21,930 bases of DNA from Bacteroidales bacterium (GTDB lineage: Bacteria; Bacteroidota; Bacteroidia; Bacteroidales; UBA4181): contig JAISCQ010000206.1 in NCBI GenBank assembly GCA_031265445.1, forward strand, positions 1 to 21,930, given 5' to 3'. Both the position numbers and the translations under genes were made by a program. This document shows, piece after piece, positions 3,410-21,559 of this stretch (the stretch's first letter is position 1; every line of letters starts with the position of its first letter). Under the pieces are notes generated by a model, which did no database searches, was not told the origin of the DNA, and was given only the letters and a program-made list of their open reading frames with translations.

Positions 3410-3490
3410 GGCGCATGCGAAAAATATTTTGACGCATGCGAAAAATGTTCTGACGCATGCGAAAAATGTTTCGGCGCATGCGAATTTTTC
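3410..3490. repeat. Four tandem 21-bp direct repeats, each containing the 8-bp palindrome CGCATGCG (consensus GrCGCATGCGAAAAATrTTyt)
   Basis: Units at 3410-3430, 3431-3451 and 3452-3472, plus a diverged fourth at 3473-3490. The array lies between the convergent 3' ends of ackA (+) and the helicase gene (-). A 21-bp unit is two helical turns. Confidence 0.8.
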
Positions 3491-3671: not shown

Positions 3672-3724
3672 TCGAAATCGCAGTGGAGACATTCTTGCAG
3701 ACCGCCAGTCATATTATAAGTCTA

Positions 3725-6700
3725 TTAACCAAACAGATCCTTCAACGATACTTCTCTTTCCCTCACTTCTTCCACCTTATTGAGGCTCACGTACCACAGG
3801 AATCCCTTTACAGAAGCGTATCCCATTTTTCGCAGGTGTTCCATGTAGCGCAGCACCTGGTTCCGGTATTTTCCAGATTCTACTTCGCCGAACTTATAAT
3901 CGATCACTTGTATGTGCCCCTTTTCGAAAACGATCCGGTCAGGACGGGCAATGGAACCGTCGGGAAGCAGGATTTCCGCTTCGGTTTTCACCTGCATGCC
4001 CGGTGCAAACCATCGCCTGACGGTTGGGTTGACAAGCGCCTGATGTACCATATCAATAATGTGTGTCCGTTCCGCTTCTGACAGTTTGCCTTCGGTGATC
4101 ATCGTATTGAGGGTATGTTCCAGGTCGGCGGTGGTAACAATACTGCGGAAAATATCGTGTAACAGCCGGCCCTTGTTCATTTGGGCGCCAGATACAACGT
4201 CGGAGACAAAGTAGGCGCTGTTCCGCGTGATGTGCGGAACAAAATCCCAGGTACGCGGGGCTGATCGGCTCAAATACGATGCCTGCTCAGCGATCTTTTC
4301 TTCCTTTCCGGTTTCTTTTCCAGTCAAAATGCCTAATTCGAAACATAAAACACCCTTCTCACCCCTTTTCCAGGAGGGGAAATCCGTGCTGTTTGAGAGA
4401 GGTTGATGGTATATTCTGTGAATCAAATCTTTTATCCCGGTAAACTCGTTTTTCTCCTGTTGCGGAATCGAAATGAACAATGCTTTGCGGGCGCGGGTGA
4501 AAGCCACGTACAGCAGGTTCAGATTGTCGATGTACGACAGCATTTTTTCGCGCAGATATTCCTTCACAAAAACGGTGTTGCGCAGCGCCGGCTCGAATTT
4601 TAGCGGCAGGAGTTTCATATCGTTGAACGGCTCCCCTGCAGGCTGGCACCACAGCGTTTTTCCGGCCTTGCACAATGGCCAGTCGCAGAAAGGAATGATC
4701 ACGGCGTCGAACTCCAATCCCTTCGATTTGTGAATGGTGATCAGCCGGATGGCATCCTGGCTGTCGGGCATGGTCATGTATTTCCGGTTCTTTTCTCCTT
4801 CCCACCAGTCTAAAAACGAACGGACGTCGGTGGCTTCCCGCCGGGTGTACTGTAGCAAAATATCCTGAAATGCCTGCAAAAAAGGTGCTTGCCCGGCATT
4901 TTGATACAGATTGTATTGATGGATCAGCTTGTCGGACAGTTCGTATACAGGCAGGGAACTCTCCGTTTCTCCGCAGGAGAAAAGCGATGTGCTGTCCAAC
5001 AGTGATCCGGACGGGGACTCAACTCCTCCCCCCCTGTGGGAAGGGGGTTGGGGGGAGAGATATGTTTCGTACTCGTGTTGCAGGTACGCGCGGTTGATCA
5101 GGTCGTTGGGCTCCACGATATAGCGCATGGCCGCAACCAGCCATTTCACCGCGGGCGAATTACCAATCAGTAACGATTCGTTCGACAACACGTCGTAACG
5201 GTACTTCGAATCGGGGTTTGCCCGACGGTATGCGAGCAGCATATCGGCAATGGTTTGCGCCTCCCTGTTCTCGCGTACCAGTATGGCGATGTCCGACAAT
5301 CCGTATCCCATATCCTGCAGATGCTCTATACGCCGGGTCAGTTCTTCGAGCGCCTTGTCGCGCCATGTTTTTTCTGCATCCTTTTCTTCAGCAATTGCCG
5401 ACAGATGTACATAACCCTTTTCCTCTTTCTGCCGTTCGGGCAAATGTTGATAGCTGTCCTTATATGCTTCGGTCATCGACGCTGCCAGACCATGCAGATA
5501 TTCTTCATCGGCTGTTTTTTCCTCGTCGGTCAGGAAGGCTCCGCATAACTGCAATACGGCTTCCCGGAAAAAAGCATTGTTGAAGTGAACCACTTCGGGG
5601 GCGCTTCGCCAGTTCTTATCTAAGTTCCGCACCTTCACGTACTGTGAACCCAGGTCGCGTTCCACCTGTTCCGACAGGATTTTCCAGTCGGTATTACGCC
5701 AGCGGTAAATCGCCTGTTTCACATCGCCCACAATCCACTCCCGGTAACCCGAAGCGATGCTGTTGGCGACGAGCGGCCGGAAATTATCCCACTGGATGGA
5801 TGATGTATCCTGGAACTCATCGATCATGAAATGATTATAGAAACTGCCCACGCGTTCGTAGATGAACGGCGCGTCGGCATTGGCGATGATCGTTTTCAGG
5901 AATCCCGACGCTTCCGAGAGCAGGAACAGGTTCTGATTGCGGGTATACTCGTTCACGTAGCGCATCAGATCGCACAGCACGCCCAATACGTTGATTTGTT
6001 TCAGGATTACGGCGGCTGTGGCCACTTCCCGTGCATGTTCGGTTTGGTAGGTCACCATGTTTTGCAACATTTCACCTAATCCACCTTCATATGCATTCCT
6101 GACAGGGGTTTTCCAGTGCGAATATTTGCCATGCCAGCCTTCGATACCTTTGAGCGCCAGCATTACATAAGTATTGATCTTTGCTTCCTTCCGTTTGGAG
6201 AGTTTGTCAAAATATCCTCCCACTCCACTGCTTTTCCTGGTAAAATGATCGACTTCAAGTCCGTAACTTTCCATGATGGATATTGCCATCTGGCCGTATC
6301 CTTGCAGGTAATCCCAGTAACTATCGACCAATTGCTGCAATTTCATGCGGTAACGCTCCAAACTTTCCTTGTCGGTAGTTTCGCGCAATATCTCAGGCTC
6401 GATGTTTTGCAGTTCTTCGCTGAAAATCTCGCTTCCGAGCCGCAATACATCCGACTTGAAGTTCCATGACTTACCTTCTTCGATCTTCCGTTTGGCCCAT
6501 CCTACCAGCCAGTCCTTCAGAAAATCGTTCTTGTCGATATCGTCCAGCATCAGTCCGGTCGACTCGTCGAGTACCGAATCCTGGTCGAGTTCCACGTTAT
6601 ATCCGGCATACAGACCCATTTCGCGAGCAAACGAGCGGATTACCTTCTGGAAAAAACTGTCGATAGTGACTACCGAAAAATGAGAATAGTCATGCAGCAG

Positions 6701-7078
6701 GTATTTCAATACTTTCCCGGCTATGGCGGGCAGGTCGTTTTCGCGTATCCCTGTTGCTTCCGCCATATCCCCGATATACTTTTCGTCCTTGCGGTTAGCC
6801 ATACGGTGTAAGTCGCGCACAATGCGGCTTTTCATCTCTTCCGTGGCCTTGTTGGTAAATGTTACGGCAAGGATGCGCCGGTGATAGTTGCTGCTGCTCA
6901 GCAGCAACTTGATGTATTCGGCGGTAAGGGTATAGGTTTTTCCGGAACCGGCCGATGCGCGGTATATGGCAAGGTGGCTGATAAGCGGTACAATTTGGTT
7001 TATACGGCAAATGTAAGCAATTTTTGATTTTTGAAAGACGATTTGCGCTCGTATTTTTTGTAAAAAAAATACGAGCAT
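3725..7078 (-). CDS. UvrD/Rep-family superfamily-1 helicase fused to a C-terminal RecB-type PD-(D/E)xK nuclease (AddA/RecB-like helicase-nuclease)
   Basis: An N-terminal Walker A (IYRASAGSGKTYTLT) is followed by UvrD-like helicase motifs (MIDEFQDTS, VGDVKQAIYRWR). A C-terminal RecB-nuclease motif reads HIQVIDYKFGE followed by QVLRYMEHL (the QxxxY motif). Length is 1117 aa. Confidence 0.9.
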   Translation of the reverse strand: MLVFFLQKIRAQIVFQKSKIAYICRINQIVPLISHLAIYRASAGSGKTYTLTAEYIKLLLSSSNYHRRILAVTFTNKATEEMKSRIVRDLHRMANRKDEKYIGDMAEATGIRENDLPAIAGKVLKYLLHDYSHFSVVTIDSFFQKVIRSFAREMGLYAGYNVELDQDSVLDESTGLMLDDIDKNDFLKDWLVGWAKRKIEEGKSWNFKSDVLRLGSEIFSEELQNIEPEILRETTDKESLERYRMKLQQLVDSYWDYLQGYGQMAISIMESYGLEVDHFTRKSSGVGGYFDKLSKRKEAKINTYVMLALKGIEGWHGKYSHWKTPVRNAYEGGLGEMLQNMVTYQTEHAREVATAAVILKQINVLGVLCDLMRYVNEYTRNQNLFLLSEASGFLKTIIANADAPFIYERVGSFYNHFMIDEFQDTSSIQWDNFRPLVANSIASGYREWIVGDVKQAIYRWRNTDWKILSEQVERDLGSQYVKVRNLDKNWRSAPEVVHFNNAFFREAVLQLCGAFLTDEEKTADEEYLHGLAASMTEAYKDSYQHLPERQKEEKGYVHLSAIAEEKDAEKTWRDKALEELTRRIEHLQDMGYGLSDIAILVRENREAQTIADMLLAYRRANPDSKYRYDVLSNESLLIGNSPAVKWLVAAMRYIVEPNDLINRAYLQHEYETYLSPQPPSHRGGGVESPSGSLLDSTSLFSCGETESSLPVYELSDKLIHQYNLYQNAGQAPFLQAFQDILLQYTRREATDVRSFLDWWEGEKNRKYMTMPDSQDAIRLITIHKSKGLEFDAVIIPFCDWPLCKAGKTLWCQPAGEPFNDMKLLPLKFEPALRNTVFVKEYLREKMLSYIDNLNLLYVAFTRARKALFISIPQQEKNEFTGIKDLIHRIYHQPLSNSTDFPSWKRGEKGVLCFELGILTGKETGKEEKIAEQASYLSRSAPRTWDFVPHITRNSAYFVSDVVSGAQMNKGRLLHDIFRSIVTTADLEHTLNTMITEGKLSEAERTHIIDMVHQALVNPTVRRWFAPGMQVKTEAEILLPDGSIARPDRIVFEKGHIQVIDYKFGEVESGKYRNQVLRYMEHLRKMGYASVKGFLWYVSLNKVEEVREREVSLKDLFG
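5024..5060. repeat. GC-rich hairpin (CTCCTCCCCCC ... GGGGGGAGAG) embedded in-frame in the helicase CDS
   Basis: An inverted repeat of C- and G-runs is read directly. It encodes a Pro/Gly/Ser-rich low-complexity segment (PQPPSHRGGGVESPSGS) inside the helicase. Confidence 0.5.
7047..7076. promoter_or_regulatory. Perfect 13-bp inverted repeat GCTCGTATTTTTT-gtaa-AAAAAATACGAGC overlapping the first codons of the helicase gene
   Basis: A perfect palindrome is read directly. The helicase ATG (plus 7076-7078) abuts it, and codons 2-10 lie within it. It may be an operator or a translational control element. Confidence 0.4.
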
Positions 7079-7186: not shown

Positions 7187-7270
7187 TACCCAGGGCCGGG
7201 ATCGAACCGGCACGAGTGTTATCTCACTGGTGTTTGAGACCAGCGCGTCTACCAATTCCGCCACCTGGGC
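7187..7270 (-). tRNA. tRNA-Leu (anticodon CAA), type II with a long variable arm
   Basis: Folded by hand from the reverse complement GCCCAGG-TG-GCG-GAATTGGTAGA-CGC-G-CTGGT-CTCAAAC-ACCAG-TGAGATAACACTCGTG-GCCGG-TTCGATC-CCGGC-CCTGGGT-A. The acceptor stem has a G1:U72 pair, the D-stem is 3 bp, and the anticodon loop has U33 followed by CAA. The T-loop reads TTCGATC, the discriminator is A, and no CCA is encoded. Confidence 0.85.
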
Positions 7271-7290
7271 GTGGTGTCAAATTGCGGGTG

Positions 7291-7321
7291 CAAAGATACA
7301 GGTTTCTTTATTTCGGCCAAA
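7291..7321 (-). promoter_or_regulatory. Candidate tRNA-Leu promoter (-7 TAtcTTTG at 7298..7291 and -33 TTTG at 7321..7318 on the minus strand)
   Basis: An exact Bacteroidetes -7 consensus lies 20 bp from a TTTG. The predicted TSS is about 10 nt upstream of the tRNA 5' end. Confidence 0.5.
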
Positions 7322-7347
7322 TATTTTTAGATTTTTTCTTTACGGTT

Positions 7348-8661
7348 CTAAAAAAAGAAGCAAATCAGCAGGTTCGTGCGGAAGTTGGCTACTTCGGAGG
7401 CATCAACGATTTTTGCTTTATGATCGTTTTGTACCCTCCCGAATGCGGCTGCCGTGTATTCGAATTCGGCGGCAAACTGCCAGTTGTTCACGTTATAGAA
7501 CACATGCGGCGAAATGCGGTACATGTATTTAATGTCATGGGCGCGGGCGTACCAGGCTGCGCCTACTGCGTTGTCGAGCGTTCCCAGGCTGTTGAGGTAT
7601 CCGGCCAGCAAGCCTGCCTGCAATTTCTTGCCGTAGTCCACATTCACCCAGTAGTTCATGTGTTGCGTGGGTGTGTATTGCTCGTGCCCGGTATTCGGGT
7701 CAATAGCGCTCACCGCATAACCGCCGATCATCAACGACTCGGTGGTATTTTGCGCATAAGTGGCTTGCGCTTTGAACACCCAACTGCCGGCCTGATACTG
7801 TGCATAAGCCTGTACGGCATAAGTAGTGAGTTTTTCGTCGGTCTTGTATTTCGGTCCGTTGGTATCGGTATAGTCGGTCATTGTATAAAGGCGCGGTTTA
7901 ATGGATTTTATGCTTCCAACGATTCCAGCCTGGAACGCCGGGGTTTTGTATGCGACATTGACGGCAAATTCGGGCCACAGGGCATCGCGCAGATAGGTCG
8001 GACTTTTAACCGAGGTAGATGCGGTGCCGGGCGCAGGCCCCAGCGAAGCGTAGTCGCTTTGGTATACGGCAATGGCCGAGAGGAGCCAATGTCCCGGCTT
8101 GTAGTCGAACCGTACCTGATCGCTCCGGTTGAACGCCCAGAACGGCGCCCCGGTATTGAGTGCAATTACGTTAGGAACACAACCGGCGGCCAGCGGGTGC
8201 CATGTACGCCCCACGAGCAGGTTGGCTTTGGACCAGGCAAGGCCGGTATATGCCTGACGCAGGCGCACTCCGTTGGTATTGGAAGTTCCCGTGAAGTCGA
8301 ACTCAATGTAAGCCGACGATTTGGCGCCAAACACATCGGGAGCATAAAATCGCGTGCAAAGGCGCGATGCAATGGAAACAAAGTTGGCTTTGGGCGCGGC
8401 ATTAAGATCCTTGCCGTTGGCATCGAGCATTTTGTTCGAGGGGTAAAACGTAAACAATCCTTCAACAGCTTCGGCAGTCTGACGCGTATCATAGATGTAG
8501 TCGATCCGGGCAAACCCCGAAATTTGCAACCCAAACGAGCGGCCCAGCCGGATTGTGTCGTTACGGGAAAAAACCGGCAGGCAAAACAACTGTAAAACAG
8601 TGAATAACAAGAAAAAACATCGCGAAATAATTCTCATGGTTGTGCTATTTTCGGGACGCAA
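7348..8661 (-). CDS. Outer-membrane beta-barrel protein / putative porin with N-terminal signal peptide
   Basis: There is a hydrophobic signal peptide (MRIISRCFFLLFTVLQLFCLPVFS). Alternating amphipathic strands are rich in Y/F/W/N/G, and the protein ends in an aromatic residue (CFFF) typical of OM barrels. Length is 437 aa. Confidence 0.7.
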   Translation of the reverse strand: MRPENSTTMRIISRCFFLLFTVLQLFCLPVFSRNDTIRLGRSFGLQISGFARIDYIYDTRQTAEAVEGLFTFYPSNKMLDANGKDLNAAPKANFVSIASRLCTRFYAPDVFGAKSSAYIEFDFTGTSNTNGVRLRQAYTGLAWSKANLLVGRTWHPLAAGCVPNVIALNTGAPFWAFNRSDQVRFDYKPGHWLLSAIAVYQSDYASLGPAPGTASTSVKSPTYLRDALWPEFAVNVAYKTPAFQAGIVGSIKSIKPRLYTMTDYTDTNGPKYKTDEKLTTYAVQAYAQYQAGSWVFKAQATYAQNTTESLMIGGYAVSAIDPNTGHEQYTPTQHMNYWVNVDYGKKLQAGLLAGYLNSLGTLDNAVGAAWYARAHDIKYMYRISPHVFYNVNNWQFAAEFEYTAAAFGRVQNDHKAKIVDASEVANFRTNLLICFFF

Positions 8662-9886: not shown

Positions 9887-10798
9887 ATGTGGGAACAAGC
9901 AGTTAAAGATTTCGTTGCCTACCTGAAAATCGAGAAATCCTTGTCCATTAACACCATCGAGGCATATATCGACGACATGAACAAACTGCAGGCATATTTG
10001 CAGTCAATCGGTTCGTCGGCCGCGCCACAGGAAGTAACTCCTGCGATGTTGTCGGATTTTCTGGTATACGAAGGGGAGCTGGGCATGCGGGCGCGTTCGC
10101 AGGCGCGTATGCTATCCGGTATCCGTGCGTTTTACAAATACCTGCTGATGGATAACCTGATTGACGCGGATCCCACTCGTCTGGTGGATTACCCGAAGAT
10201 TGGCCGCAAGTTGCCCGACGTGCTCACCGTGCAGGAAATAGATGCGCTGTTGGGCGCTATCGACCTGAGCCTGCCGGAAAGTCAGCGTAATAAGGCGATG
10301 ATCGAAACCATGTATAGTTGCGGACTGCGGGTATCAGAGCTGACAGGATTGCATCTTTCCGATTTGTATCTGAAGGAAAGTTTTATTAAAGTGAAAGGCA
10401 AAGGCAGCAAGGAACGGATGGTGCCCATCAGCGATAAGGCCATACACGAAATCAAGCTGTATATGTCCGATCGCGCCAAGCTGGATATTGCTCGCGGACA
10501 CGAGGATTTCCTGTTTCTCAACCGGCGTGGCAAAATGCTTTCGCGTGTGATGGTGTTCACCATCATCAAGAACCTGTCGGCAACCATTGGTTTGCAGAAA
10601 AGCATCAGTCCGCATACGTTCCGTCATTCATTTGCCACACACCTGGTGGAAGGCGGCGCCGACCTGCGTGCCGTACAGGAGATGCTCGGACACGAATCGA
10701 TTCTTACCACCGAAATATACACCCACTTGGACCGTAGCTTTTTGAGGCAGACCATTGTGGAATTTCATCCGCGAAGTCGAAAAAGGAGTGAAGAGTGA
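9887..10798 (+). CDS. xerD: Site-specific tyrosine recombinase XerD
   Basis: There is an N-terminal core-binding domain (FVAYLKIEKSLSINTIEAYIDDMNKL). The catalytic domain carries the R...HxxR...Y signature (GLRVSELTGL ... HTFRHSFATHLVEGGADLRAVQEMLGHESILTTEIYTHL). Length is 303 aa. Confidence 0.9.
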   Translation: MWEQAVKDFVAYLKIEKSLSINTIEAYIDDMNKLQAYLQSIGSSAAPQEVTPAMLSDFLVYEGELGMRARSQARMLSGIRAFYKYLLMDNLIDADPTRLVDYPKIGRKLPDVLTVQEIDALLGAIDLSLPESQRNKAMIETMYSCGLRVSELTGLHLSDLYLKESFIKVKGKGSKERMVPISDKAIHEIKLYMSDRAKLDIARGHEDFLFLNRRGKMLSRVMVFTIIKNLSATIGLQKSISPHTFRHSFATHLVEGGADLRAVQEMLGHESILTTEIYTHLDRSFLRQTIVEFHPRSRKRSEE

Positions 10799-10829
10799 AG
10801 AACATCTTATATATATCTGTCAGGGATTC

Positions 10830-11125
10830 CATGCAAGCTTGCAAAGATCGCTTGAAAGCGATCGGGAGCGCTTTACACGCCTGCAAAGCATCCGTAATTT
10901 CTTTCGGACATGGTTTGCAAGCCTGCAAAGCATGTCGATACATGTTCAAAAGGTGTTTGCAAGGTTACAAAGCATATCGGTACATGTTCAAAAGGTGTTT
11001 GCACGGCTGCAAACCATTCAAAACAGTTTACGGGGATAGCTTGCAGGCTTGCAAACTGCTTCTAACCGGTTACATGAATACTTTGCAAGCCTGCAAAGCA
11101 TGGGTGAAGGATTTAGATGGAATCA
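10830..11125. repeat. About 7-unit degenerate tandem repeat array with 42-bp period. The conserved palindromic core is TTGCAAGCCTGCAAAGCATG (TTGCA-N4-TGCAA), separated by roughly 22-bp variable segments
   Basis: Core copies begin near 10832, 10879, 10916, 10958, 11000, 11042 and 11084, with spacing of 41-43 bp. Units at 10916 and 10958 also share their variable segment. An extra palindrome GATCGCTT-ga-AAGCGATC lies at 10845-10863. The array fills the xerD-GNAT intergenic region. Confidence 0.75.
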
Positions 11126-11136
11126 TGTACAATCTA

Positions 11137-11627
11137 TGAACATCAGGAAAGCAACATCGGACGATGCCCGCGCTATTTGTAATATCTACAATTATTACAT
11201 CGAAAACACCGCAATCACTTTTGAAACGGCGCCTGTTTCGGAGAGAGAGATGAAACGGCGCATCAGCGAAGTCTTCGAGTCGGGTTACTCATTCTTCGCG
11301 GGTGAAAACGAAGGTAAAATCATCGGGTATTACTATACGCACCGATGGAACAGTCGCCGCGCCTATGCCACTACCGTCGAAGAAAGCATATACCTGGACA
11401 AGGACGAAAAGGGCAAGGGATATGGCACGCAAATGTTCGAGCATCTGTTACAGCGCATCGACCGAAGCAAAATCCACGTACTTCTGGGCGTTATTTGCAT
11501 CCCGAATGAAGGTAGCGTACGGCTGCATGAGAAATTCGGCTTCAAACAGGTATCGTATATGAAAGAGATCGGGCGCAAGTTCGATCAGTGGCGGGACGTG
11601 GGACATTGGCAACTAACGTTTTGCTGA
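11137..11627 (+). CDS. GNAT family N-acetyltransferase (YncA / phosphinothricin-acetyltransferase-like)
   Basis: Residues MNIRKATSDDARAICNIYNYYIENTAITFE are followed by acetyl-CoA motif A (KGKGYGTQMFEHLL) and a C-terminal YncA/PAT-like tail (VRLHEKFGFKQV). The listed ORF starts at 11049 inside the repeat array. The Met at 11137 gives a typical 163-aa GNAT. Confidence 0.85.
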
Positions 11628-11649
11628 TGCAGTAGCCGGCGTCATGAAA

Positions 11650-12591
11650 TTACTGTCCGTTTTGCTTTAAGCGGGTAATTTCAGCAAGAAGGCCGGCCCG
11701 TTCTTTTTCGAATTTTTCATGTTCCTTTTCGAATTTTTCACGTTCCTTTTCGAGTTCTGCACGTTTTTTTTCGAGTTCTTTTTTGAATTCTTCGCGCTCT
11801 ATCCGTCCTTCTTCCAGACCTTCCTTTCTACCTTTCGCAATTCCTTCATCTCTTGCGGAAGATACGTCGCTCAAATCCTTACTGCGCATTTCCATTGCAT
11901 AATCGTATGCCTTCCGTTCTTCCGGCGTGAGATTGTTTCTGTCAAGAACTTCGCGCGCCTTTTGCAAGCCCCTGGCCTTAAATTCGTCCTTTACAGCATT
12001 ATTTTTCAGCATGTAAATCCATTCGTCAAGCGTATCCTTCGTGATGTCGTCAAAATTGTTGACTTTCAAAATGTAGTACTCGGGATAAATATCGCCCGCC
12101 ATTTCCTTGCCGAATGTCTGGCGCTGAACTTCGGAGAGACGGAGTTCATCCCTGTTGTGCATGCCTGTGAAACTTGTTTTGCCATGATAGACATAATCGC
12201 TTCCCTGCCCCAAATCGAAATACACGATGTTGATGGAATAAATTTTACTTACTTCCTTATATTTCATTCCCTGAACCATGCGCCCGGTTACCGCCTTGCT
12301 TGTCCCGAACAGCATGCGGTGCAAATAATCGAGTTCCGTCTCGAACTGCAATTCTATCAGCATGATTTCCCCCGATACATCCTCGACAAGAATGTCAACC
12401 CTGTTCTGTTTGTCTTTGGGGTATTCCCTGTTACTTTCGCTTTCGCCGATACTCTTTAGCGAAACCTCGCGCATCAGAAGCTCGCTCAAAAAGCCTTCCA
12501 GTATGTCAAAATGGGCTTTGTCGCGCAATAATAATTTTATCGCATAGTCGAATGATATCAATACCCGTTCGCCTTTTTTATCCTCTTCCAT
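11650..12591 (-). CDS. Rpn-family (YhgA-like) recombination-promoting nuclease / PD-(D/E)xK 'putative transposase' family protein with a C-terminal coiled-coil
   Basis: The nuclease core reads VDILVEDVSGEIMLIELQ (D...E.Q). The overall architecture matches the PDDEXK_2/Rpn family. The C-terminus contains EKFEKEHEKFEKER heptad repeats, encoded by 24-bp DNA tandem repeats at about 11700-11790. Length is 313 aa. Confidence 0.8.
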   Translation of the reverse strand: MEEDKKGERVLISFDYAIKLLLRDKAHFDILEGFLSELLMREVSLKSIGESESNREYPKDKQNRVDILVEDVSGEIMLIELQFETELDYLHRMLFGTSKAVTGRMVQGMKYKEVSKIYSINIVYFDLGQGSDYVYHGKTSFTGMHNRDELRLSEVQRQTFGKEMAGDIYPEYYILKVNNFDDITKDTLDEWIYMLKNNAVKDEFKARGLQKAREVLDRNNLTPEERKAYDYAMEMRSKDLSDVSSARDEGIAKGRKEGLEEGRIEREEFKKELEKKRAELEKEREKFEKEHEKFEKERAGLLAEITRLKQNGQ

Positions 12592-12619
12592 AACTCTCCT
12601 CTCTATATTTTTTATTATT

Positions 12620-13546
12620 TTATTGATTCAGTGTTTTAAGACGGGCAAGCTCTGCGAGCAGGAGTTCCTTTTCGGCAATAGCGGCTTCTTTTTCGGTGCG
12701 TTCACGGGCAAGAGCAACGTCTTTTTCGGCAAGAGCAGCGTCTTTTTCGGCAAGAGCAGCTTCCTGCTGTTCAATTTTTTGCAGGTTGTCTTTTTCCGAC
12801 GATTCCAGCAATTCCTGATAAGTCTCCCATGCTTCGATTTCGGCTTCTATCCTCGCGCGTTCTTTGGCGTCGGAAGCGCAATAATGCAGGATATCCGTTA
12901 TCCGGCGAATATTTTTGTCTTCAACCGGATAATGATAGTATTTTGTCATTTTGCTGTCGACAAAACTGTCCTGTATAAACACGCTCAGCAGCTTATCCAA
13001 ATCTGTCGTGTAACGTTCCTTTTCTATTTTGCGGGTTTGTACCACCACGCAGTTGTGCATTATGCGCTCTATAAAATGACTTTTTACATCCATGTCCGTT
13101 TCGTGGATTGCATCGAAATAGCTTTTGTTCACCCGAACACAGGACGTCGCAATCTCCGGCAATTCGAAACCTAAAATATAGATGGCGATTATCGGCAAGC
13201 CGGTTTCCCTGCCGTCAACCACATCATTCCGTTTATACTGCTCGGCAATATAGTTTCTGAACCGGCTGAGATTGGTTATTTTCAATGCTTTTTGAACTTC
13301 TATCAACACTTTCGTGTATTCACTGTCTCCGGTTTGGACGGTTGCAACAAAATCAAGCCGGTACATGCGCAGGGCTACTGCCAGCGCTTTTGCCTGTTCG
13401 TCTTCCATGTACATTACTTCCTGTGATTTCACTTCGATGGAAACTACAGGCTTGCCTAAAAGAGTACTTACGATGAACTTTGAAGTCTCGTTATCCTCCG
13501 TCAGTCTCTTGAAAACCGTGTCATATATTGGATTTGCTATAATCAT
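12620..13546 (-). CDS. Second Rpn-family (YhgA-like) PD-(D/E)xK nuclease paralog with a C-terminal coiled-coil
   Basis: The protein MIIANPIYDTVFKRL ... YRLDFVATVQTGDSEYTKVLIEVQ has the same fold family as its neighbour. The C-terminal repeats AALAEKDAALAEKDVALAR are encoded by 21-bp DNA tandem repeats at about 12690-12760. Length is 308 aa, and it lies 28 bp upstream of the first paralog on the same strand. Confidence 0.8.
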   Translation of the reverse strand: MIIANPIYDTVFKRLTEDNETSKFIVSTLLGKPVVSIEVKSQEVMYMEDEQAKALAVALRMYRLDFVATVQTGDSEYTKVLIEVQKALKITNLSRFRNYIAEQYKRNDVVDGRETGLPIIAIYILGFELPEIATSCVRVNKSYFDAIHETDMDVKSHFIERIMHNCVVVQTRKIEKERYTTDLDKLLSVFIQDSFVDSKMTKYYHYPVEDKNIRRITDILHYCASDAKERARIEAEIEAWETYQELLESSEKDNLQKIEQQEAALAEKDAALAEKDVALARERTEKEAAIAEKELLLAELARLKTLNQ

Positions 13547-13783
13547 GATCTTTAATTTTTTCCATGTGTTTTCATAAAATACCGTCTCTTTTTATGGTTT
13601 CGCCACGATCAGTCACATCCTGCCCAAGGCTACCCCAATAAACATGTTTTACAAGGGCCAAAGATAAATAGAATAATCCATACCGCGTTCCGAAATTTCA
13701 ATTTCATCGATTATTGGAATACATCATGTATCATTTTGATTTCTAACCGACATGTCATCCTTACAGGATTTAACTTATCGGTT

Positions 13784-16700
13784 TCATGGGTTAGAAACTC
13801 CGAATTTTCCATCCGGCGGAACAAGTGGCGCACTCGACGATACCGCCGTTGCCAGCGCCGCCTTGATTCCTTCCAATCCCTCATTGAATTGCGCCAATTG
13901 CGCAATCACTTGTCCCATCGGGTTGTCCTGTCCGATACCTGCCAGCTTGTTGTTTTTCAGGAAAATTGTTTTGATGGCTTCCCAACGGTTACGATCGCTG
14001 TCGGTGAGTTTCCCGGTGATTTCCTTTAATTTCAGCAGGTTTGCTTCGTTGTCGGAAGTCAGTGTCTGGGCTTCGCTTTCATAATGGTTCAGGATGAGGG
14101 TATCTACTTCGGCAGCGTTCATCAAGGGGAGGATGAGTCCTGTCATTTTGTTCATATCGCGGTACGAGCCTTGCAGTTTGAACGGCGGTTCGGTGCGGTA
14201 GGCATCCTTCGTGGCGGCACTGGCGATGTACTGCCGGTTCACTTGCAGTACTGTTTCGCGTACTTGCATGGCATGGCGCGCTACGGCAATGAAGTCGTCC
14301 ACATCCTGGCGGGTATGGTTGCCCTCGAGGTTGAGCAGCGTCTCGTCGCCGGTTTCCACGAACCGTATCAACCGATAGAAGTCGGCGAAACTTTTGCTGC
14401 CGACTTTTTGCAGGCAGGAGTTTTCGGCCATGGCGTTTTCGAGGAGACTCAGACGGAACAGGTCTTCCGAACCGCCGATGACGTCGCCGAGGTTGTACAC
14501 GTCGGCACGATTAGCGAGCATGTCGGGTATGCGGAACTTTTCGCCGCTCTCGGTGTAGGGGTTGCCGGCCATCACCACACAGAAGCGCTTGCCGCGAAGG
14601 TCGTAAGTTTTGCTTTCGCCGTCGAACGTGCCGTCCATCTTGCGCTGACCGTCGGCCAGCGAGATGAATTTTTGCAGAAATTCGGGGCTGCAGTGCTGTA
14701 TATCGTCGAGGTAGAGCATCACGCTGTCGGCCATCTCGAATGAGAGATTGATTTTTTTCAGTTCCTCGCGCGCGCCGGAAGTTTTGGCTTCGGACGGATC
14801 GATGGATGTGATGGAATGGCCGATGGTGGGGCCGTTGATCTTCACGAACGTCAATCCCATGGTCTTGGCCAGATATTCCATGAGTGTCGTTTTACCGTAT
14901 CCGGGAGGCGACACAAGCAGGAGCATCCCCATACGGGCGGTACGCTTGTCTTCTCCGGCTACGCCCAACTGTTTGGCAAGATTGGCGCCGATGAGCGGCA
15001 AGTATACTTCGTTGATGAGCTTATTGCGGACAAAGGATGTCAGTACGCGAGGTTTCAGTTCGTTCAGCTTCAATGTTTTCTTGAAATCTGCCACCAGCGT
15101 TTCTTTCAGATGGATAAACTCATTGTATGCCGGGACGCAGGTTTCCGTAAAGTAAGTCATCCTGTCGACAAAGCGATGGTAATCCTGTGCATAGAAACCG
15201 TTGACAATCACGGCATGGTTTCCTTTCAGACCGTCGGTGTCCATTTGGTCGCCGCTTCTGTGCAGGATATATTCGCCGCCGGTGTCGAATAACAACAGGC
15301 AGGCCGCTTCTTCCGGGTATTTTCGCAACTGTTCGCAGTTTTTCGATTCATCTATAAAAGACTCCAGCCAATTACATGTCAAATGGAAACGCTCCGCCTG
15401 ATCGAATGACTCGTCGCGGATGTCGGTTTCGAACCGGTGAAGGAAATCCTTTTTCCCGAGGTAATGAAGAAAATCCTTTTTTAGCGTTTCCGCCTGTTCG
15501 CTTTTGGTAAATGAGGGCGATGCGGAAAATTCGCGAAAGAGATATTCCGCTATGAGCGACTCCCTGCCCTCCTCTCCGCAAGGGAGGGAGAACACGCCGC
15601 CTGACGGTAACGGAAAACGAAGACTCTTCTCCGATTCCGGATCCTCTTTACGGAAGAGTTCTTTTATCCGCTCCATCACATATTTATAGTGATCCGATTC
15701 CGGGAAGACTTTCAGGACGGAACTTGCCGAAGCAATCATCTTTATCAGCCTGTCTCTCTGCATATCTTCAAGGCTGTACCAAAGCAGTTGCGCAGACGCC
15801 CGTATGCGGGGCGTGAACGAAAGTATTCCCAACTCTTTGTTTACAGCCTCGAGCATTTGGTAAATCCGCACCGCATCATCATCATGCACACCCTTGACAT
15901 ACGACTCCGAATAGCATTGCTCTACCTTGTGGGTGATGAAGGCTTTCGGGTCGAAATCTTTCGTCTTGCTCTTTTCTGCAAAAGTTTGCCAGGCAAGGTA
16001 TTCGGCGCGGTAAACCTGCGCATTTTCCGACACGGTTTCCTGCTCCCAGTAATCGCGGTAAGCGGCGAGACGTTCGCTGCGAAGCTCGTGGAAAAATCCC
16101 GTCCCCATGAGGTGGTAGAACAGACGGTTATCGCGCCGCACCACCGTGAGGTCGAGCGGCTGCCTGTTCACGGTAAACTTATGCGTCCCGAGGCTGATGA
16201 TCTGCTGCCCGTCCACAAACAGTTCGTTACGGTCTTTGAGCACGCGCAGCGCATCCTCGCGCGAGGTTTTCAGGCTGTTTTCGAGATTTTCGGCTTTCGA
16301 TACATCGCCGAGGCTTTTCAGGTCGTCCACCAATTGCCGTACCTTGTCAATCATCAGGTCGGATGAGAAAAACGATTGTATCTCCTCTTTGGTCTTGAAC
16401 GATTGTGCCTTGTTTTCAATGTTTTTCAACACCCGAAGCCCGATTTGCTCGAGCGATGAGCTGCGCCGGTTGATCTGCTCCATCAGTTGCGCTTTGCGAC
16501 CGTCGAATGCTTTGGTGATTTCGTCGCGCTTATCGGCAATCTTACCGATAAACTCGTCGAAATCGGCAAACTTGCCTTCCATTTCTTCCACCTGAATGCT
16601 CGCCTTGGCGAAATATTCGTCGCATTTGGGCAGCGAGGCGGCCAGTTCGAGGTAGTTTGCCACGCTCTGTTCGAGCAGGGTAAGCTGTGCGCTGAACTCG

Positions 16701-18784
16701 GCTACGGCTTCGCGATTGCGTAACGAGTCGATCTTCCGCTTGAGCTGCGCCCGCAGTTCGTTGAGCGACGAGAAGATGAGCGATATTTTTTCGATGATGC
16801 GCGTGGCTTGTGTGGTATCCTCTATTTTCAGGCTGTTGAGGATGTCGATAAGCAATTCCAGTTCCGACGAGATGAGTTTGCAGTTTTCGTCCACCCTGTT
16901 GGCATCGATCACCTTGGTTACTTCCTCCACGCGCGCTTTTTCGGCAACCGTTTTTTCTTCGTAGGGCGCCAGCGCTTCGTCGCGGAGCAGAAATTCGACA
17001 GTCTTTGCAGACAGGATCGTATTGGTTTCGGCCAACCGGTTTTTCAATTCGTTTACACGGGTTATATCCGCGTACTTCACGTTGCCCAGTTCAATAACTT
17101 CACCTTGCAGGCGTCGTGTTTCGGCCAGCAGTTTTACCAACGAGTCCAGCGTATCGAATTTGGCGTGCTTGATGCGGAACATCAGCGCATCCACCTTGTC
17201 GACCGTGATCGTGAGTTGCTGTGCGGCGTGCTTTTTCTGCGCCTGCACCTTTTCGAACTCATCAATGGCAGTGTTGGCTATTTTCTTGATTTCCTTCAAC
17301 GGATCGGACATCCTGAAAGCAGCATCGTCCGACACCCAGAAATAGGCATCGACAATGTCGTTCGACTTCTTCACAATATCCTCATAAAGGCCTTCGTACG
17401 AGTCCTCTTTGTTGATCAGGTAAATGACCTCCTGACATTCGGCCATTACCTTCACAATATCCTTGTTGCCGATCTTGTAGAGTTGGTTACCGCATTTTTC
17501 CGGATTCTCGATGAGTCGTTCCTGATAAGGCGTCTGCCAAATCTGCACCTGGTGATGGCGCGTGGCTTCCACCTCGGAGCGGAAATAAATGAGCGCGCCG
17601 TCGCCAAAGAACGTGAAACCGTTGCAGATAATCGGCGTTTCCACTTGCTGCCGGATGATGTTGTACGACATCAGCACGTAGATATTGCGCTCATGCTGGT
17701 AAAAGATGTACAGGAAATCCTCGCCGTTGGGCGATGTCATTTTGCGGAAAAATTCGAGGTTCGACAGGTCATTGTCGAAAATTTTGTATTCGCCGTTTTG
17801 CAGGTAATAGCCATTGGGGAAGATCACGCCGTGATGGTCGGGCAGCAGGATACCGGCATCATTGAGCATCGGTATGTTGTGCACTTCCCTGGTCCGGGTA
17901 TTGAACACGAACGCGCGGTAACTTTCCTGATAGGGCTTGATGCGCACCAGGATCAGGTTGCCCAGGTCGGCGTAGTAATACTCGGCGTCGTCTAACTGCT
18001 GGTCTTTATTTTCGACTTTTTCGGCATAGATACCCTTGCCGGTCTGCGTATTGTCCTCAATCTTGAAGGTAATATCGCCGCCAACGGCTTCAATAAAAAC
18101 CCTGTCGAGCACCGACACATGCGGATATACGCCTAACCGGCGGTCTTCGAGGGTCGTTTTCGTCCATTTAAATTCGTGCTGTTCGGCGCGTTTCACCTCG
18201 TGGATGCTGCGATCATCCCGATATATCAGCCTGTCGCCCTTGATCAGCCACTTGAAGGCTTTCAGGTCGTCGACATTCTTTCCGGTCTGGAAAATCATGT
18301 ACAGGTAATTTTCCGTCCGGCGGAAACGCGAAAAGATGGAGTCGCGGTAATATCTGTACAGGTTTTTATAATCGTTCACAAACTGTTCATCATCGATCAG
18401 GTCGAGCGATTGCGGTATAAACTGGTGGTCCTCGAAACGGTAGATGCTGAACACGTCGCTCAACTGTATGTCCGATCGCAGCCCGAAATGCACGTTGTAG
18501 CCGAAAATACAAAGTTTCCCGAAGGCCATGATACCGCGCGACACGCAATTGTTCTCGGTGTTGATGCGCTGGTTGGCCAGCAGTGTGAAATCGATGGCGC
18601 GGAAAACCTCCTTGCGGGCATCGTTGAGCCGGCCAAGCCGCTGCGACAGATCGTCGCGCTGTGCAAAAAGCCGCTTGCGGATGATTTCGTATGTGCCGGC
18701 GTCTAATGTCTCGGCTGGCTGGTTGGTGTCTTGCATTGATGTCTTTGTTGATTCGGAATTTTTTCCCGTCAAGGATACATTCAT
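13784..18784 (-). CDS. Giant (1666 aa) uncharacterized multidomain protein containing a MoxR/AAA_5-type AAA+ ATPase module near its C-terminus
   Basis: A long uninterrupted ORF with strong codon structure. The AAA_5 signature reads LLLVSPPGYGKTTLMEYLAKTMG (Walker A), then LYLDDIQHCSPEFLQKFISLADGQRKMDG (Walker B), then RFCVVMAGNPYTESGEKFRIPDMLANRADVY (sensor-1). The N-terminal ~480 aa are aromatic- and beta-strand-rich, and residues ~500-850 form an extended charged coiled-coil. No TM segment or signal peptide is present. It is co-directional with, and 50 bp downstream of, the flotillin gene. Confidence 0.85.
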   Translation of the reverse strand: MNVSLTGKNSESTKTSMQDTNQPAETLDAGTYEIIRKRLFAQRDDLSQRLGRLNDARKEVFRAIDFTLLANQRINTENNCVSRGIMAFGKLCIFGYNVHFGLRSDIQLSDVFSIYRFEDHQFIPQSLDLIDDEQFVNDYKNLYRYYRDSIFSRFRRTENYLYMIFQTGKNVDDLKAFKWLIKGDRLIYRDDRSIHEVKRAEQHEFKWTKTTLEDRRLGVYPHVSVLDRVFIEAVGGDITFKIEDNTQTGKGIYAEKVENKDQQLDDAEYYYADLGNLILVRIKPYQESYRAFVFNTRTREVHNIPMLNDAGILLPDHHGVIFPNGYYLQNGEYKIFDNDLSNLEFFRKMTSPNGEDFLYIFYQHERNIYVLMSYNIIRQQVETPIICNGFTFFGDGALIYFRSEVEATRHHQVQIWQTPYQERLIENPEKCGNQLYKIGNKDIVKVMAECQEVIYLINKEDSYEGLYEDIVKKSNDIVDAYFWVSDDAAFRMSDPLKEIKKIANTAIDEFEKVQAQKKHAAQQLTITVDKVDALMFRIKHAKFDTLDSLVKLLAETRRLQGEVIELGNVKYADITRVNELKNRLAETNTILSAKTVEFLLRDEALAPYEEKTVAEKARVEEVTKVIDANRVDENCKLISSELELLIDILNSLKIEDTTQATRIIEKISLIFSSLNELRAQLKRKIDSLRNREAVAEFSAQLTLLEQSVANYLELAASLPKCDEYFAKASIQVEEMEGKFADFDEFIGKIADKRDEITKAFDGRKAQLMEQINRRSSSLEQIGLRVLKNIENKAQSFKTKEEIQSFFSSDLMIDKVRQLVDDLKSLGDVSKAENLENSLKTSREDALRVLKDRNELFVDGQQIISLGTHKFTVNRQPLDLTVVRRDNRLFYHLMGTGFFHELRSERLAAYRDYWEQETVSENAQVYRAEYLAWQTFAEKSKTKDFDPKAFITHKVEQCYSESYVKGVHDDDAVRIYQMLEAVNKELGILSFTPRIRASAQLLWYSLEDMQRDRLIKMIASASSVLKVFPESDHYKYVMERIKELFRKEDPESEKSLRFPLPSGGVFSLPCGEEGRESLIAEYLFREFSASPSFTKSEQAETLKKDFLHYLGKKDFLHRFETDIRDESFDQAERFHLTCNWLESFIDESKNCEQLRKYPEEAACLLLFDTGGEYILHRSGDQMDTDGLKGNHAVIVNGFYAQDYHRFVDRMTYFTETCVPAYNEFIHLKETLVADFKKTLKLNELKPRVLTSFVRNKLINEVYLPLIGANLAKQLGVAGEDKRTARMGMLLLVSPPGYGKTTLMEYLAKTMGLTFVKINGPTIGHSITSIDPSEAKTSGAREELKKINLSFEMADSVMLYLDDIQHCSPEFLQKFISLADGQRKMDGTFDGESKTYDLRGKRFCVVMAGNPYTESGEKFRIPDMLANRADVYNLGDVIGGSEDLFRLSLLENAMAENSCLQKVGSKSFADFYRLIRFVETGDETLLNLEGNHTRQDVDDFIAVARHAMQVRETVLQVNRQYIASAATKDAYRTEPPFKLQGSYRDMNKMTGLILPLMNAAEVDTLILNHYESEAQTLTSDNEANLLKLKEITGKLTDSDRNRWEAIKTIFLKNNKLAGIGQDNPMGQVIAQLAQFNEGLEGIKAALATAVSSSAPLVPPDGKFGVSNP

Positions 18785-18790
18785 GTAAGA

Positions 18791-18820
18791 CCTGATCAGG
18801 TTTTTGAAAAACCTGACAGG
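18791..18820. other. Intra-operon hairpin CCTGATCAGGTTTTT-g-AAAAACCTGACAGG between the flotillin stop and the giant ATPase start
   Basis: A 10-bp perfect stem (TCAGGTTTTT/AAAAACCTGA) with flanking near-complementary arms. It contains the same CCTGACAGG motif as the hairpins at 3641 and 7096. The internal CCTGATCAGG is itself palindromic. Confidence 0.55.
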
Positions 18821-18834
18821 TCATGACGTTCGGC

Positions 18835-21537: not shown

Positions 21538-21559
21538 AGAATTAGAACAGAAAATTATT

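What the first reader, a model, noticed from the sequence alone, without database searches (positions are those of the whole stretch)
10830..11125. Phased 42-bp x about 7 tandem array with palindromic core TTGCAAGCCTGCAAAGCATG immediately 3' of xerD
A strict period of about 42 bp (four helical turns) combines a roughly 20-bp conserved inverted-repeat core with about 22-bp variable segments. This architecture resembles plasmid centromeres such as F sopC (12 x 43 bp, each with a short inverted repeat) and iteron arrays. It suggests cooperative same-face binding by a dimeric DNA-binding protein. The array sits directly after the XerD recombinase gene and fills the entire intergenic region up to the GNAT gene. 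All three forward frames and one reverse frame stay partly open across it, which is typical of non-coding periodic DNA, although a small Cys-rich repeat peptide cannot be fully excluded. It is not CRISPR-like: the core is degenerate, the spacers are too short, and two spacers are duplicated.
Basis: seen in the sequence. Interest (0 to 1): 0.65.

Follow-up and report, generated by a model that had tools for sequence, protein, structure and literature searches.

The report
Mobile palindromic 42-bp repeat insertion
The seven-unit 42-bp array after xerD is real, but it is a 324-bp non-coding repeat element that inserted between two genes. It belongs to a widespread, apparently unnamed class of phased palindromic tandem repeats, and is not a plasmid-type centromere, an iteron array or a peptide gene.

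Summary
Seven cores (TTTGCA-N4-TGCAAA) lie exactly 42 bp apart at 10830-11101.

- **Insertion.** A relative with about 94% nucleotide identity (L204) has xerD and the GNAT gene only 11 bp apart. The window carries 324 extra bases (10805-11128) flanked by a 3-bp ACA duplication.
- **Second copy.** The same 271-bp array (90.8% identical, no indels) sits in unrelated flanks on another contig (L001).
- **Not coding.** Codon usage of the 114-aa ORF falls below every real-gene segment of the window. All six frames are equally conserved between the copies. An exhaustive search of 1.84 billion proteins finds only the L001 copy. Related arrays carry stops in the equivalent frames.
- **Class.** A metagenome scan found at least 120 loci. 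The dominant group is intergenic 42-bp (also 21/84-bp) arrays with the same core and about 18 unrelated second halves, between unrelated genes.
- **Context.** The window is chromosomal, with no par or rep genes and no Rfam match.

Best reading: an interspersed, BOX/REP-like palindromic minisatellite. Its function and mobilising factor are unknown. The palindrome arms and the spacing look constrained while the rest drifts at the neutral rate, so phased protein binding remains a live minority hypothesis.

The parts
10802..10804 (+). Left copy of the 3-bp direct duplication ACA (putative target-site duplication or microhomology)
   Evidence: BLAST of the empty-site locus L204 against the window ends at 10804 and resumes at 11129, with L204 bases 3689-3691 (ACA) used twice.
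10805..11128 (+). Inserted element, 324 nt, absent from the xerD-GNAT spacer of the relative L204
   Evidence: The L204 spacer is 11 nt (AAGAACAATCT) against 337 nt here. The flanks align at 93.6% and 94.8% overall and are nearly identical close to the junction.
10805..10830 (+). Left non-repeat arm of the insertion (26 nt, TCTTATATATATCTGTCAGGGATTCC)
   Evidence: It lies inside the insertion but is not shared with the L001 copy (local alignment p = 0.66).
10825..10832 (+). GATTCCAT, left arm of an 8-bp subterminal inverted repeat
   Evidence: It pairs with 11117-11124 in the predicted fold; read directly from the sequence.
10831..11101 (+). 271-bp array block shared with L001:1730-2000 (90.8% identity, 25 substitutions, no indels)
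10830..10871 (+). Unit 1: core cATGCAAGCTTGCAAA plus a strong second palindrome GATCGCTT-GA-AAGCGATC
   Evidence: 8-bp stem, no shuffle of 5000 as good.
10872..10913 (+). Unit 2: core TTTACACGCCTGCAAA
10914..10955 (+). Unit 3: core TTTGCAAGCCTGCAAA plus CATGT-CGAT-ACATG
10956..10997 (+). Unit 4: core TTTGCAAGGTTACAAA; near-duplicate of unit 3 (88%)
10998..11039 (+). Unit 5: core TTTGCACGGCTGCAAA
11040..11081 (+). Unit 6: core CTTGCAGGCTTGCAAA plus TAACCGGTTA
11082..11101 (+). Unit 7 (truncated): core TTTGCAAGCCTGCAAA plus GCAT; end of the shared block
11102..11128 (+). Right non-repeat arm of the insertion (27 nt), containing ATGGAATC (11117-11124)
   Evidence: not significantly shared with L001 (p = 0.15).
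11129..11131 (+). Right copy of the ACA duplication
10795..11139 (+). 114-aa ORF (GTG start overlapping the xerD stop, TGA overlapping the GNAT ATG); judged a by-product of the repeat, not a gene
   Evidence: No gene was called here by the pipeline that annotated L082.

Best explanation
This is a non-coding, non-autonomous interspersed repeat element. It consists of seven 42-bp modules, each built around the palindrome TTTGCA-N4-TGCAAA, plus short arms of 26 and 27 nt.

Shown:
- It inserted into what was an 11-bp spacer between xerD and a GNAT acetyltransferase gene on a Bacteroidales chromosome.
- It belongs to a broad class of 21/42-bp-phased palindromic tandem arrays scattered between unrelated genes.
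- The 114-aa ORF exists only because a stop-free unit whose length is a multiple of three keeps a frame open.

Inferred:
- The element spreads as a block, mobilised in trans by an unidentified enzyme or by illegitimate recombination.
- It has no function tied to xerD.
- It is co-transcribed inside a DUF362-xerD-GNAT operon, where its hairpins act as REP/BIME and BOX elements do: they attenuate read-through or protect the upstream mRNA, and they uncouple GNAT from xerD.
For: - **Empty site.** L204 (93.6-94.8% nucleotide identity over 4.2 kb) has the same DUF362-xerD-GNAT order with an 11-nt spacer. The window has 324 extra nt bounded by ACA/ACA.
- **Second copy.** The same 271-bp block lies in unrelated flanks on L001.
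- **Neutral overall rate.** The two copies differ by 9.2%, the same as the four-fold-site divergence of the flanking genes (50/541).
- **Not coding.** In the ORF frame, 6 changed codons are synonymous and 13 are not. All six frames are 80-85% conserved. Codon-usage log-odds is -0.118 per codon, against a mean of 0.43 and a minimum of 0.00 for 110 real-gene segments. There is no Pfam or NCBIfam hit. Only the L001 ORF is a real hit among 1.84 billion representatives. The equivalent frames are closed on both strands in at least 15 of 34 related arrays, and some arrays have stops in all six frames.
- **Class.** At least 120 metagenome loci match the two-core pattern. The array period is 42 bp in 29 loci, plus 84 (5), 21 (3) and 41-43 (6). 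The arrays lie between genes, with no enriched neighbouring family. The same array families occur in different flanks.
- **Operon context.** There is no -7 box (TAnnTTTG) between 8695 and 12910 and no terminator-like site on the + strand.
- **Published analogues.** BOX elements form ORFs on both strands and are transcribed as parts of operons (PMC3049150). REPs are reiterated in tandem (PMC3733652).
Against: - No transposase, and no inverted repeat at the very ends, was found.
- The 26- and 27-nt arms are not shared with the second copy, so the unit that moves is not defined.
- A 3-bp duplication could be microhomology rather than a target-site duplication.
- Polarity (insertion versus precise deletion) rests on parsimony, because the outgroups do not keep the xerD-GNAT adjacency.
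- Only two copies of this particular element are known.
- The palindrome arms changed at 3 of 83 positions against 22 of 188 elsewhere (p = 0.04). There are no indels, although two orthologous spacers of the same genome pair differ by 24 and 29 nt. Both points hint at a constraint that a purely selfish element would not need.
- Transcription and any hairpin effect are untested.
Confidence: 0.72

Rival explanations
1. The array is a phased protein-binding array. A dimeric DNA-binding protein (a nucleoid-associated protein, a regulator, or the enzyme that mobilises the element) binds the TTTGCA-N4-TGCAAA dyads on one face of the helix, much as centromere-binding or iteron-binding proteins do. 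The array then acts as a landing pad that shapes local DNA structure or expression.
For: - The period is exactly 42 bp (four helical turns) in seven units whose second halves are unrelated.
- In about half of the families a second palindrome is centred exactly 21.0 bp from the core centre.
- The arms are conserved while the centre and the spacers drift at the neutral rate, and there are no indels.
- Core orientation shows no consistent relation to gene direction, which argues against a strand-specific RNA role.
Against: - No candidate protein was found. Nothing is enriched next to the arrays, and the window has no par or rep genes and no nearby helix-turn-helix gene.
- The array is dispensable at this locus (L204).
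- The second palindromes differ completely between arrays, and even within this one, so they cannot all be sites for one protein.
- Arm conservation could come from homogenisation between units.
- The arm-versus-rest statistic is weak (p = 0.04).
Confidence: 0.17
2. The array is a structured non-coding RNA. Transcribed, it gives a chain of hairpins that acts as a small RNA, a sponge for an RNA-binding protein, or a processing or termination signal.
For: - Both strands fold better than shuffled sequences (z = -5.5 and -7.7).
- In related arrays the second palindromes keep their symmetry through paired changes, for example ATTACG..CGTAAT to ATTAGC..GCTAAT in L113 versus L115.
- The array probably lies inside a transcript.
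Against: - No Rfam family matches, even at E-values up to 1.
- No promoter-like or terminator-like site bounds it.
- Both strands fold equally well, as any palindromic DNA would.
- There is no orientation bias relative to genes.
- The spacers evolve at the neutral rate.
- The array is absent from the sister lineage.
Confidence: 0.06
3. The array is a small Cys/Lys-rich repeat protein: the 114-aa ORF (14-residue repeat xxLQACKAxxxxxx) is translated, coupled to xerD and GNAT.
For: - The frame is open in both copies.
- The start overlaps the xerD stop (GTGA) with AGGAG 6 nt upstream, and the stop overlaps the GNAT ATG (ATGA).
- The period is 14 codons.
Against: - Codon usage is below that of every real-gene segment.
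- The ratio of non-synonymous to synonymous change is close to neutral, and the ORF frame is no better conserved than the other five.
- No family or homologue exists apart from the other copy.
- The ORF consists almost entirely of inserted DNA that the relative lacks.
- No pipeline called it: there is no self-hit in the protein collection although the xerD of this contig is there.
- Class arrays carry stops in this frame.
- A stop-free 42-nt unit keeps a frame open by construction, as seen in BOX elements (PMC3049150).
Confidence: 0.04
4. The array is a degenerate or orphan CRISPR-like array.
For: A partly palindromic repeat alternates with variable segments of fixed length.
Against: - The conserved part is only 16-20 bp and degenerate, and the 'spacers' are 22-26 bp.
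- One spacer pair is duplicated.
- There are no cas genes in 21.9 kb; the only Cas4-like match is the nuclease domain of an AddA-type helicase.
- In most arrays of the class the second halves are identical from unit to unit.
Confidence: 0.01

Closest known systems
BOX elements of Streptococcus pneumoniae and S. suis (boxA - boxB(n) - boxC)
   Same: Both are small interspersed intergenic elements with an internal module (boxB, 45 bp) repeated in tandem. Both are rich in hairpins, are inserted into transcribed regions, and form ORFs on both strands that gene callers sometimes annotate. The mobilising enzyme is unknown in both (PMC3049150).
   Different: The phylum and the sequence are unrelated. 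No conserved terminal modules are shared by the two copies here. Each unit here is centred on a palindrome, and the 42-bp lattice is strict.
REP / BIME clusters associated with RAYT (TnpA-REP) transposases
   Same: Both have palindromic extragenic units that can be reiterated in tandem with flanking DNA. Both are found between cistrons and can lie inside ORFs. Known effects are on mRNA stability and attenuation (PMC3733652, PMC3049150).
   Different: The array has no GTAG/GTGG or CGTC tag (0 occurrences). It has no match among the REP sequences listed for the Bacteroidetes subclass 2.6 (supplement of PMC6006769). No RAYT gene is in view. REP clusters are not known for a fixed 42-bp lattice.
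BrickBuilt MITE and minisatellite of Porphyromonas gingivalis
   Same: Same phylum. Both are strictly intergenic multi-copy elements made of a tandem minisatellite, with possible effects on neighbouring transcription (PMC4596501).
   Different: BrickBuilt has 23-nt repeats without spacers and has conserved leader and tail segments carrying terminal inverted repeats similar to those of IS elements. None of that is seen here.
Plasmid centromeres and iterons (F sopC 12 x 43 bp, R1 parC, pSK41 parC)
   Same: Both are tandem units of about four (or two) helical turns, each with a short inverted repeat. This is what the array could work like if a protein binds it.
   Different: The context here is chromosomal housekeeping genes, with no par, sop or rep genes. 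The array is absent from the sister lineage at this site and present elsewhere in other flanks. It belongs to a dispersed class.
CRISPR arrays
   Same: Both alternate a conserved repeat with variable segments of fixed length.
   Different: The repeat and the spacers here are too short and degenerate. There are no cas genes and no leader. Most arrays of the class have identical second halves.

Membership tests
Plasmid partition centromere (sopC / parS / parC type) | Tandem phased repeats, each carrying an inverted repeat | tested here: met
   Seven cores lie exactly 42 bp apart, with palindrome TTTGCA-N4-TGCAAA.
Plasmid partition centromere (sopC / parS / parC type) | Lies next to, or on the same replicon as, cognate parA/parB (sopA/sopB, parM/parR) genes | tested here: not met
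   Pfam and NCBIfam searches of all large ORFs in the 21.9-kb window gave: hydroxyacyl-CoA dehydrogenase, acetate kinase, AddA-like helicase, DUF362, XerD, GNAT, Rpn nucleases, DUF3686 ATPase. No partition genes. No plasmid BLAST hit.
Plasmid partition centromere (sopC / parS / parC type) | Kept at the locus in relatives | tested here: not met
   L204, about 94% identical, has an 11-bp spacer and no core motif.
Plasmid partition centromere (sopC / parS / parC type) | Bound by a centromere-binding protein | not testable with these tools
   Needs EMSA, a footprint or ChIP.
Iteron array of a replication origin | Adjacent rep gene, DnaA boxes and an AT-rich unwinding element | tested here: not met
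   No Rep family was found. DnaA-box matches number 5 against 4.3 expected, and none is near the array. GC is 0.43-0.44 across the array, only slightly below the flanks.
CRISPR | Repeats of 23-50 bp, unique spacers of similar or greater length, cas genes or a leader | tested here: not met
   The core is 16-20 bp and degenerate, the variable parts are 22-26 bp, and one pair is duplicated. There is no cas locus.
REP / BIME (RAYT-associated) | Short palindromic extragenic units, dispersed in many copies | tested here: inconclusive
   Two copies of this element are known (window, L001). The wider class is dispersed. The copy number in the source genome is unknown.
REP / BIME (RAYT-associated) | Conserved 5' tetranucleotide tag, GT[AG]G or CGTC, at the foot of the hairpin | tested here: not met
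   GTAG, CTAC, GTGG, CCAC, CGTC and GACG each occur 0 times in 10831-11101.
REP / BIME (RAYT-associated) | Cognate tnpA-REP (RAYT) gene flanked by the same repeats | not testable with these tools
   Only 21.9 kb of the genome is available, and no Y1 transposase is in it.
MITE | Terminal inverted repeats at the very ends | tested here: not met
   The insertion ends TCTTATATAT... and ...GGAATCATGT are not complementary. There is only an 8-bp subterminal inverted repeat, at unequal distances from the ends.
MITE | Target-site duplication, with an empty site in a relative | tested here: met
   An ACA duplication flanks the 324-nt insert, and L204 carries the empty site. Three bases could also be microhomology.
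MITE | Small, no coding capacity, more than one copy | tested here: met
   324 nt; coding rejected; second copy in L001.
BOX-like modular element | Internal module repeated in tandem a variable number of times | tested here: inconclusive
   Both copies have seven units. Copy numbers of 11.9-13.9 are reported for a 45-bp array family, but I did not verify that these are the same locus.
BOX-like modular element | Conserved terminal modules (boxA / boxC equivalents) | tested here: not met
   The arms of the window insertion are not shared with L001 (p = 0.66 and 0.15).
Protein-coding repeat gene | Codon usage of the host, purifying selection in one frame, homologues | tested here: not met

The most novel reading that the evidence does not exclude
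The 42-bp arrays could form a phylum-wide, so far undescribed system. Dyads TTTGCA-N4-TGCAAA set on a strict lattice of 21 or 42 bp (two or four helical turns) would serve as landing pads for an unidentified dimeric DNA-binding protein or recombinase that both recognises and spreads them. On this reading, arm sequence and spacing are under selection while everything else drifts. That would make the arrays a new kind of mobile, phased protein-binding module acting on chromosome structure or operon expression in Bacteroidota.
Probability: 0.15. Interest if true: 0.7.

Novelty: new variant of a known kind. Interest (0 to 1): 0.4.

Why it matters
- **For annotation.** The result removes a false lead. 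The array is not a xerD-linked cis element, a centromere or a Cys-rich peptide gene. It also shows how a tandem unit whose length is a multiple of three can create a convincing ORF with 'operon-like' overlaps at both ends.
- **For biology.** It documents a clean filled-site/empty-site pair for a small repeat element in an uncultured Bacteroidales lineage. It also points to a large class of intergenic 42-bp palindromic arrays for which my limited literature and Rfam searches found no name.
- **What is unexplained.** The shared 42/21-bp lattice across unrelated array families, the conserved arms and the lack of indels are not accounted for by selfish spread alone. They make a concrete hypothesis, a binding or mobilising factor, testable.

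Tried and rejected
- **Protein family searches** of the ORF (Pfam, NCBIfam) found nothing.
- **Word-indexed search** of 5.8 billion proteins found only P0001.
- **Exhaustive HMMER** against 1.84 billion representatives gave P0001 and three others. P0002 and P0003 look like ORFs translated from other tandem repeats. P0004 is a coiled-coil low-complexity match.
- **Rfam** found nothing relevant, at gathering threshold on the window and on 14 class loci, or at E-values up to 1 on the region.
- **Plasmid BLAST** (distant mode) found no match. A **viral contig scan** found 0.
- **80 xerD loci from GTDB genomes** (at most 64% identity) were too distant: none has the xerD-GNAT adjacency or the core motif. 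In hindsight this spent the only genome-collection scan, which a DNA pattern would have used better.
- **Neighbour-gene enrichment** around 45 arrays gave nothing beyond triplicates of the same loci.
- **Orientation** of the arrays relative to flanking genes showed no bias: about 3 sense and 5 antisense independent cases.
- **Promoter and terminator scans** found no sigma-70-like promoter, no + strand terminator, and no Bacteroidota -7 box inside the element.
- **RNA folding z-scores** are strong on both strands but uninformative for palindromic DNA.
- **Element ends.** The arms are not shared with L001. The locus orthologous to L001 (L208) is rearranged rather than a clean empty site.
- **Literature.** I found no paper describing a TTTGCA-N4-TGCAAA array. 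BrickBuilt, REP and BOX are analogues only.
- **54-bp spacing group.** This group of pattern hits turned out to be an unrelated conserved regulatory region.

Full report
**Observation.** The array is real. The core pattern TTGCAAGCCTGCAAA (up to 3 mismatches) hits seven positions, on both strands: 10831, 10873, 10915, 10957, 10999, 11041 and 11083. The spacing is exactly 42 bp each time. The window holds one other hit, against 0.93 expected. The repeat finder gives the same register. TRF scores only units 3-5, because the 26-nt second halves of the other units are unrelated. The core is the imperfect palindrome TTTGCA-AGCC-TGCAAA, usually followed by GCAT. An independent assembly (L082) carries the identical sequence.

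**Genomic context.**
- The upstream gene is a genuine chromosomal XerD: TIGR02225 scores 344 bits against a cut-off of 329.6.
- The downstream gene is a GNAT of the phosphinothricin/arsinothricin acetyltransferase type.
- The rest of the window encodes hydroxyacyl-CoA dehydrogenase, acetate kinase, an AddA-like helicase-nuclease, a tRNA, a DUF362 Fe-S protein, two Rpn-family nucleases and a DUF3686 ATPase.
- There are no partition or replication-initiator genes, no cluster of DnaA boxes and no plasmid match.
- The contig is an NCBI 'MAG: Bacteroidales bacterium'.

**The ORF.** A 114-aa ORF (10795-11139) fills the gap exactly. Its GTG overlaps the xerD stop and its TGA overlaps the GNAT ATG. 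It reads as a 14-residue repeat, xxLQACKAxxxxxx. I took this seriously because 42 is 14 codons, and because 72 of 94 related arrays have periods that are multiples of three. Every test went against coding.
- There is no Pfam or NCBIfam family.
- One homologue exists in 5.8 billion proteins (P0001). In an exhaustive HMMER search of 1.84 billion representatives, nothing else is credible.
- Between the two copies, 6 changed codons are synonymous and 13 are not. tblastx identity is 80-85% in all six frames, so the ORF frame is not privileged.
- A codon-usage log-odds score trained on the window's own genes gives -0.118 per codon. For 110 real-gene segments the mean is 0.43 and the minimum 0.00; wrong frames average -0.49.
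- In the wider class, the equivalent LQxCK frame is closed on both strands in at least 15 of 34 arrays, and some arrays have stops in all six frames.
- The gene callers behind the protein collection did not predict this ORF on this contig, although its xerD is on record from NCBI, JGI and Logan.
- A stop-free unit of 14 codons keeps a frame open by construction. The ATGA overlap follows automatically because GNAT starts ATG-AAC. The same artefact is documented for BOX elements (PMC3049150).

**Decisive comparison: an empty site.** The closest XerD in the collection (94% amino-acid identity) lies on JGI contig Ga0466705_162422 (L204). The gene order is the same: a 435-aa ORF, DUF362, xerD, GNAT.
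- L204 aligns to the window at 93.6% over 3.7 kb up to position 10804, and at 94.8% from 11129 onwards.
- In L204, xerD and GNAT are separated by 11 nt (AAGAACAATCT). In the window they are separated by 337 nt.
- The extra DNA is 10805-11128 (324 nt) and is flanked by ACA on both sides; L204 has a single ACA.
- The array is therefore an insertion into a formerly tight gene junction. Less parsimoniously, it was precisely deleted in the relative. More distant relatives do not keep the xerD-GNAT adjacency, so they cannot polarise the event.

**A second copy.** P0001 lies on another contig of the same JGI sample (L001).
- The 271-bp block 10831-11101 recurs there at 90.8% identity, with the same seven units in the same order and no indel.
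- It sits between a DUF3943 gene and a gene with a T9SS sorting domain, and the homology stops at the block edges.
- The 26- and 27-nt arms of the window insertion are not shared.
- The orthologous DUF3943 locus on a contig that is also in an NCBI MAG (L208) lacks any array and is rearranged about 80 nt upstream of the gene.
- Judged by source labels (an inference), the window and L208 belong to one population and L204 and L001 to a sister population. Each population would then carry the array at a different place.

**Rates of change.**
- The two copies differ at 25 of 271 positions (9.2%). Four-fold degenerate sites of the four flanking genes between the window and L204 differ at 50 of 541 (9.2%). 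Overall, the element drifts at the neutral rate.
- The changes are not evenly spread. The palindrome arms changed at 3 of 83 positions, the four central bases at 4 of 28, and the rest at 18 of 160. Arms against all other positions gives Fisher p = 0.04.
- There is no indel in the array, whereas the two orthologous spacers of the same genome pair differ in length by 24 and 29 nt.
- Arm sequence and spacing therefore look constrained, or homogenised, and the second halves do not.

- TRF gives a period of 42 bp in 29 loci, 84 in 5, 21 in 3 and 41-43 in 6. The other periods are 51 (12 loci), 30 (9) and 45 (6).
- The 42-bp group has about 18 unrelated second halves.
- In about half of these families the second half is itself a significant palindrome centred exactly 21.0 bp from the core centre. 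These second palindromes keep their symmetry through paired changes between related loci.
- In the window, unit 1 has a strong second palindrome (8-bp stem) and units 3 and 6 moderate ones.
- The arrays lie between genes of unrelated function, in every orientation, and often at contig ends. Several array families occur in different flanks.
- They show no orientation bias relative to transcription and no Rfam match.
- I did not establish the taxonomy of all the loci. The window and its relatives are Bacteroidales, and many neighbouring genes are typical of that group.

**Interpretation.** What is shown: a non-coding repeat element, inserted here, present elsewhere, and belonging to a dispersed class. 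How it moves is not shown. There is no inverted repeat at the very ends, only an 8-bp subterminal one (10825-10832 and 11117-11124). The 3-bp duplication could be microhomology. There are no GTAG or CGTC tags, and no match to the REPs listed for Bacteroidetes RAYTs.

What it does is inferred. There is no Bacteroidota -7 box between 8695 and 12910 and no terminator-like site on the + strand. The element therefore probably sits inside a DUF362-xerD-GNAT transcript. There its hairpins could attenuate or stabilise the mRNA, as REP/BIME and BOX elements do, and it separates GNAT from xerD by 337 nt instead of 11.

As membership in the plasmid centromere or iteron families, however, it fails the tests of context and of conservation at the locus.

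**Verdict.** The array is ordinary in kind: a small interspersed palindromic repeat. It is a new variant in its details. One feature is unexplained and of moderate interest: the shared 42/21-bp lattice.

Noticed in passing
window 3411-3490: A second small tandem array with a 21-bp period, 3.5 copies. Each unit holds GCGCATGCG and AAAAATnTTTT, both palindromic. It lies between acetate kinase (2201-3400, +) and the converging AddA-like helicase-nuclease gene (3725-7078, -). It shows the same 21-bp lattice idea with a different core.
   Followed up: partly
window 11630-21930, compared with L204:4190-7184: Synteny with the 94%-identical relative stops right after GNAT. The window continues with two Rpn-family PD-(D/E)XK nuclease genes, a 1666-aa DUF3686/DUF7902/AAA protein and a 705-aa ORF with no family. 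L204 has ATP synthase genes instead. The window segment may be an inserted island of 10 kb or more. PADLOC gave only a marginal mad8 hit.
   Followed up: partly
window 11699-11774 and 12707-12760: 21-bp tandem repeats lie inside the 3' ends of the two Rpn-like genes on the minus strand. They would encode heptad repeats in the protein tails.
   Followed up: no
L092:3440-3640, and about 17 other loci (L088, L091, L096, L097, L101, L104, L125, L134, L138, L152, L159, L160, L166, L183, L194, L195): A conserved intergenic region of about 190 bp carries four copies of the direct repeat TTTGCAAGTTTGCAAA / TTTGCAAA, upstream of a gene starting MSEHRYILEP. The search pattern picked it up. It is not a tandem array and is probably a regulatory region of a mobile element.
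   Followed up: no
L122:1-500, L168:13544-14193, L089:6700-7040 (reverse-strand coordinates as printed): Composite arrays: a run of units with core TTTGCAGGGGTGCAAA lies directly next to a run with the symmetric variant core TTTGCCAAGGTGGCAAA. Each run has its own second palindrome. The mosaic is reminiscent of BIMEs.
   Followed up: partly
L001:1514-1729: The part of the P0001 ORF upstream of the array (72 aa...GGTHIPFEDLGIMWNIPKLVVFEPSADRYLRK...) looks like a fragment of a real protein rather than repeat-derived sequence. It may be the remnant of a gene disrupted near the array.
   Followed up: no
L111:5470-5770 (reverse strand) and L175:140-470: One 42-bp array family does carry a GTAG tag at the foot of a long hairpin (on the opposite strand: CTGTAG-TGTATGCAAAA-CCA-TTTTGCACACG), that is, a canonical REP-like unit. 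Part of the class may therefore be linked to RAYT transposases.
   Followed up: no
window 7187-7270 (-): A tRNA gene (55 bits) overlaps the start of the mechanical ORF 7216-8595 (+). The real gene here is the minus-strand ORF 7348-8661, which is the one called in L204.
   Followed up: partly
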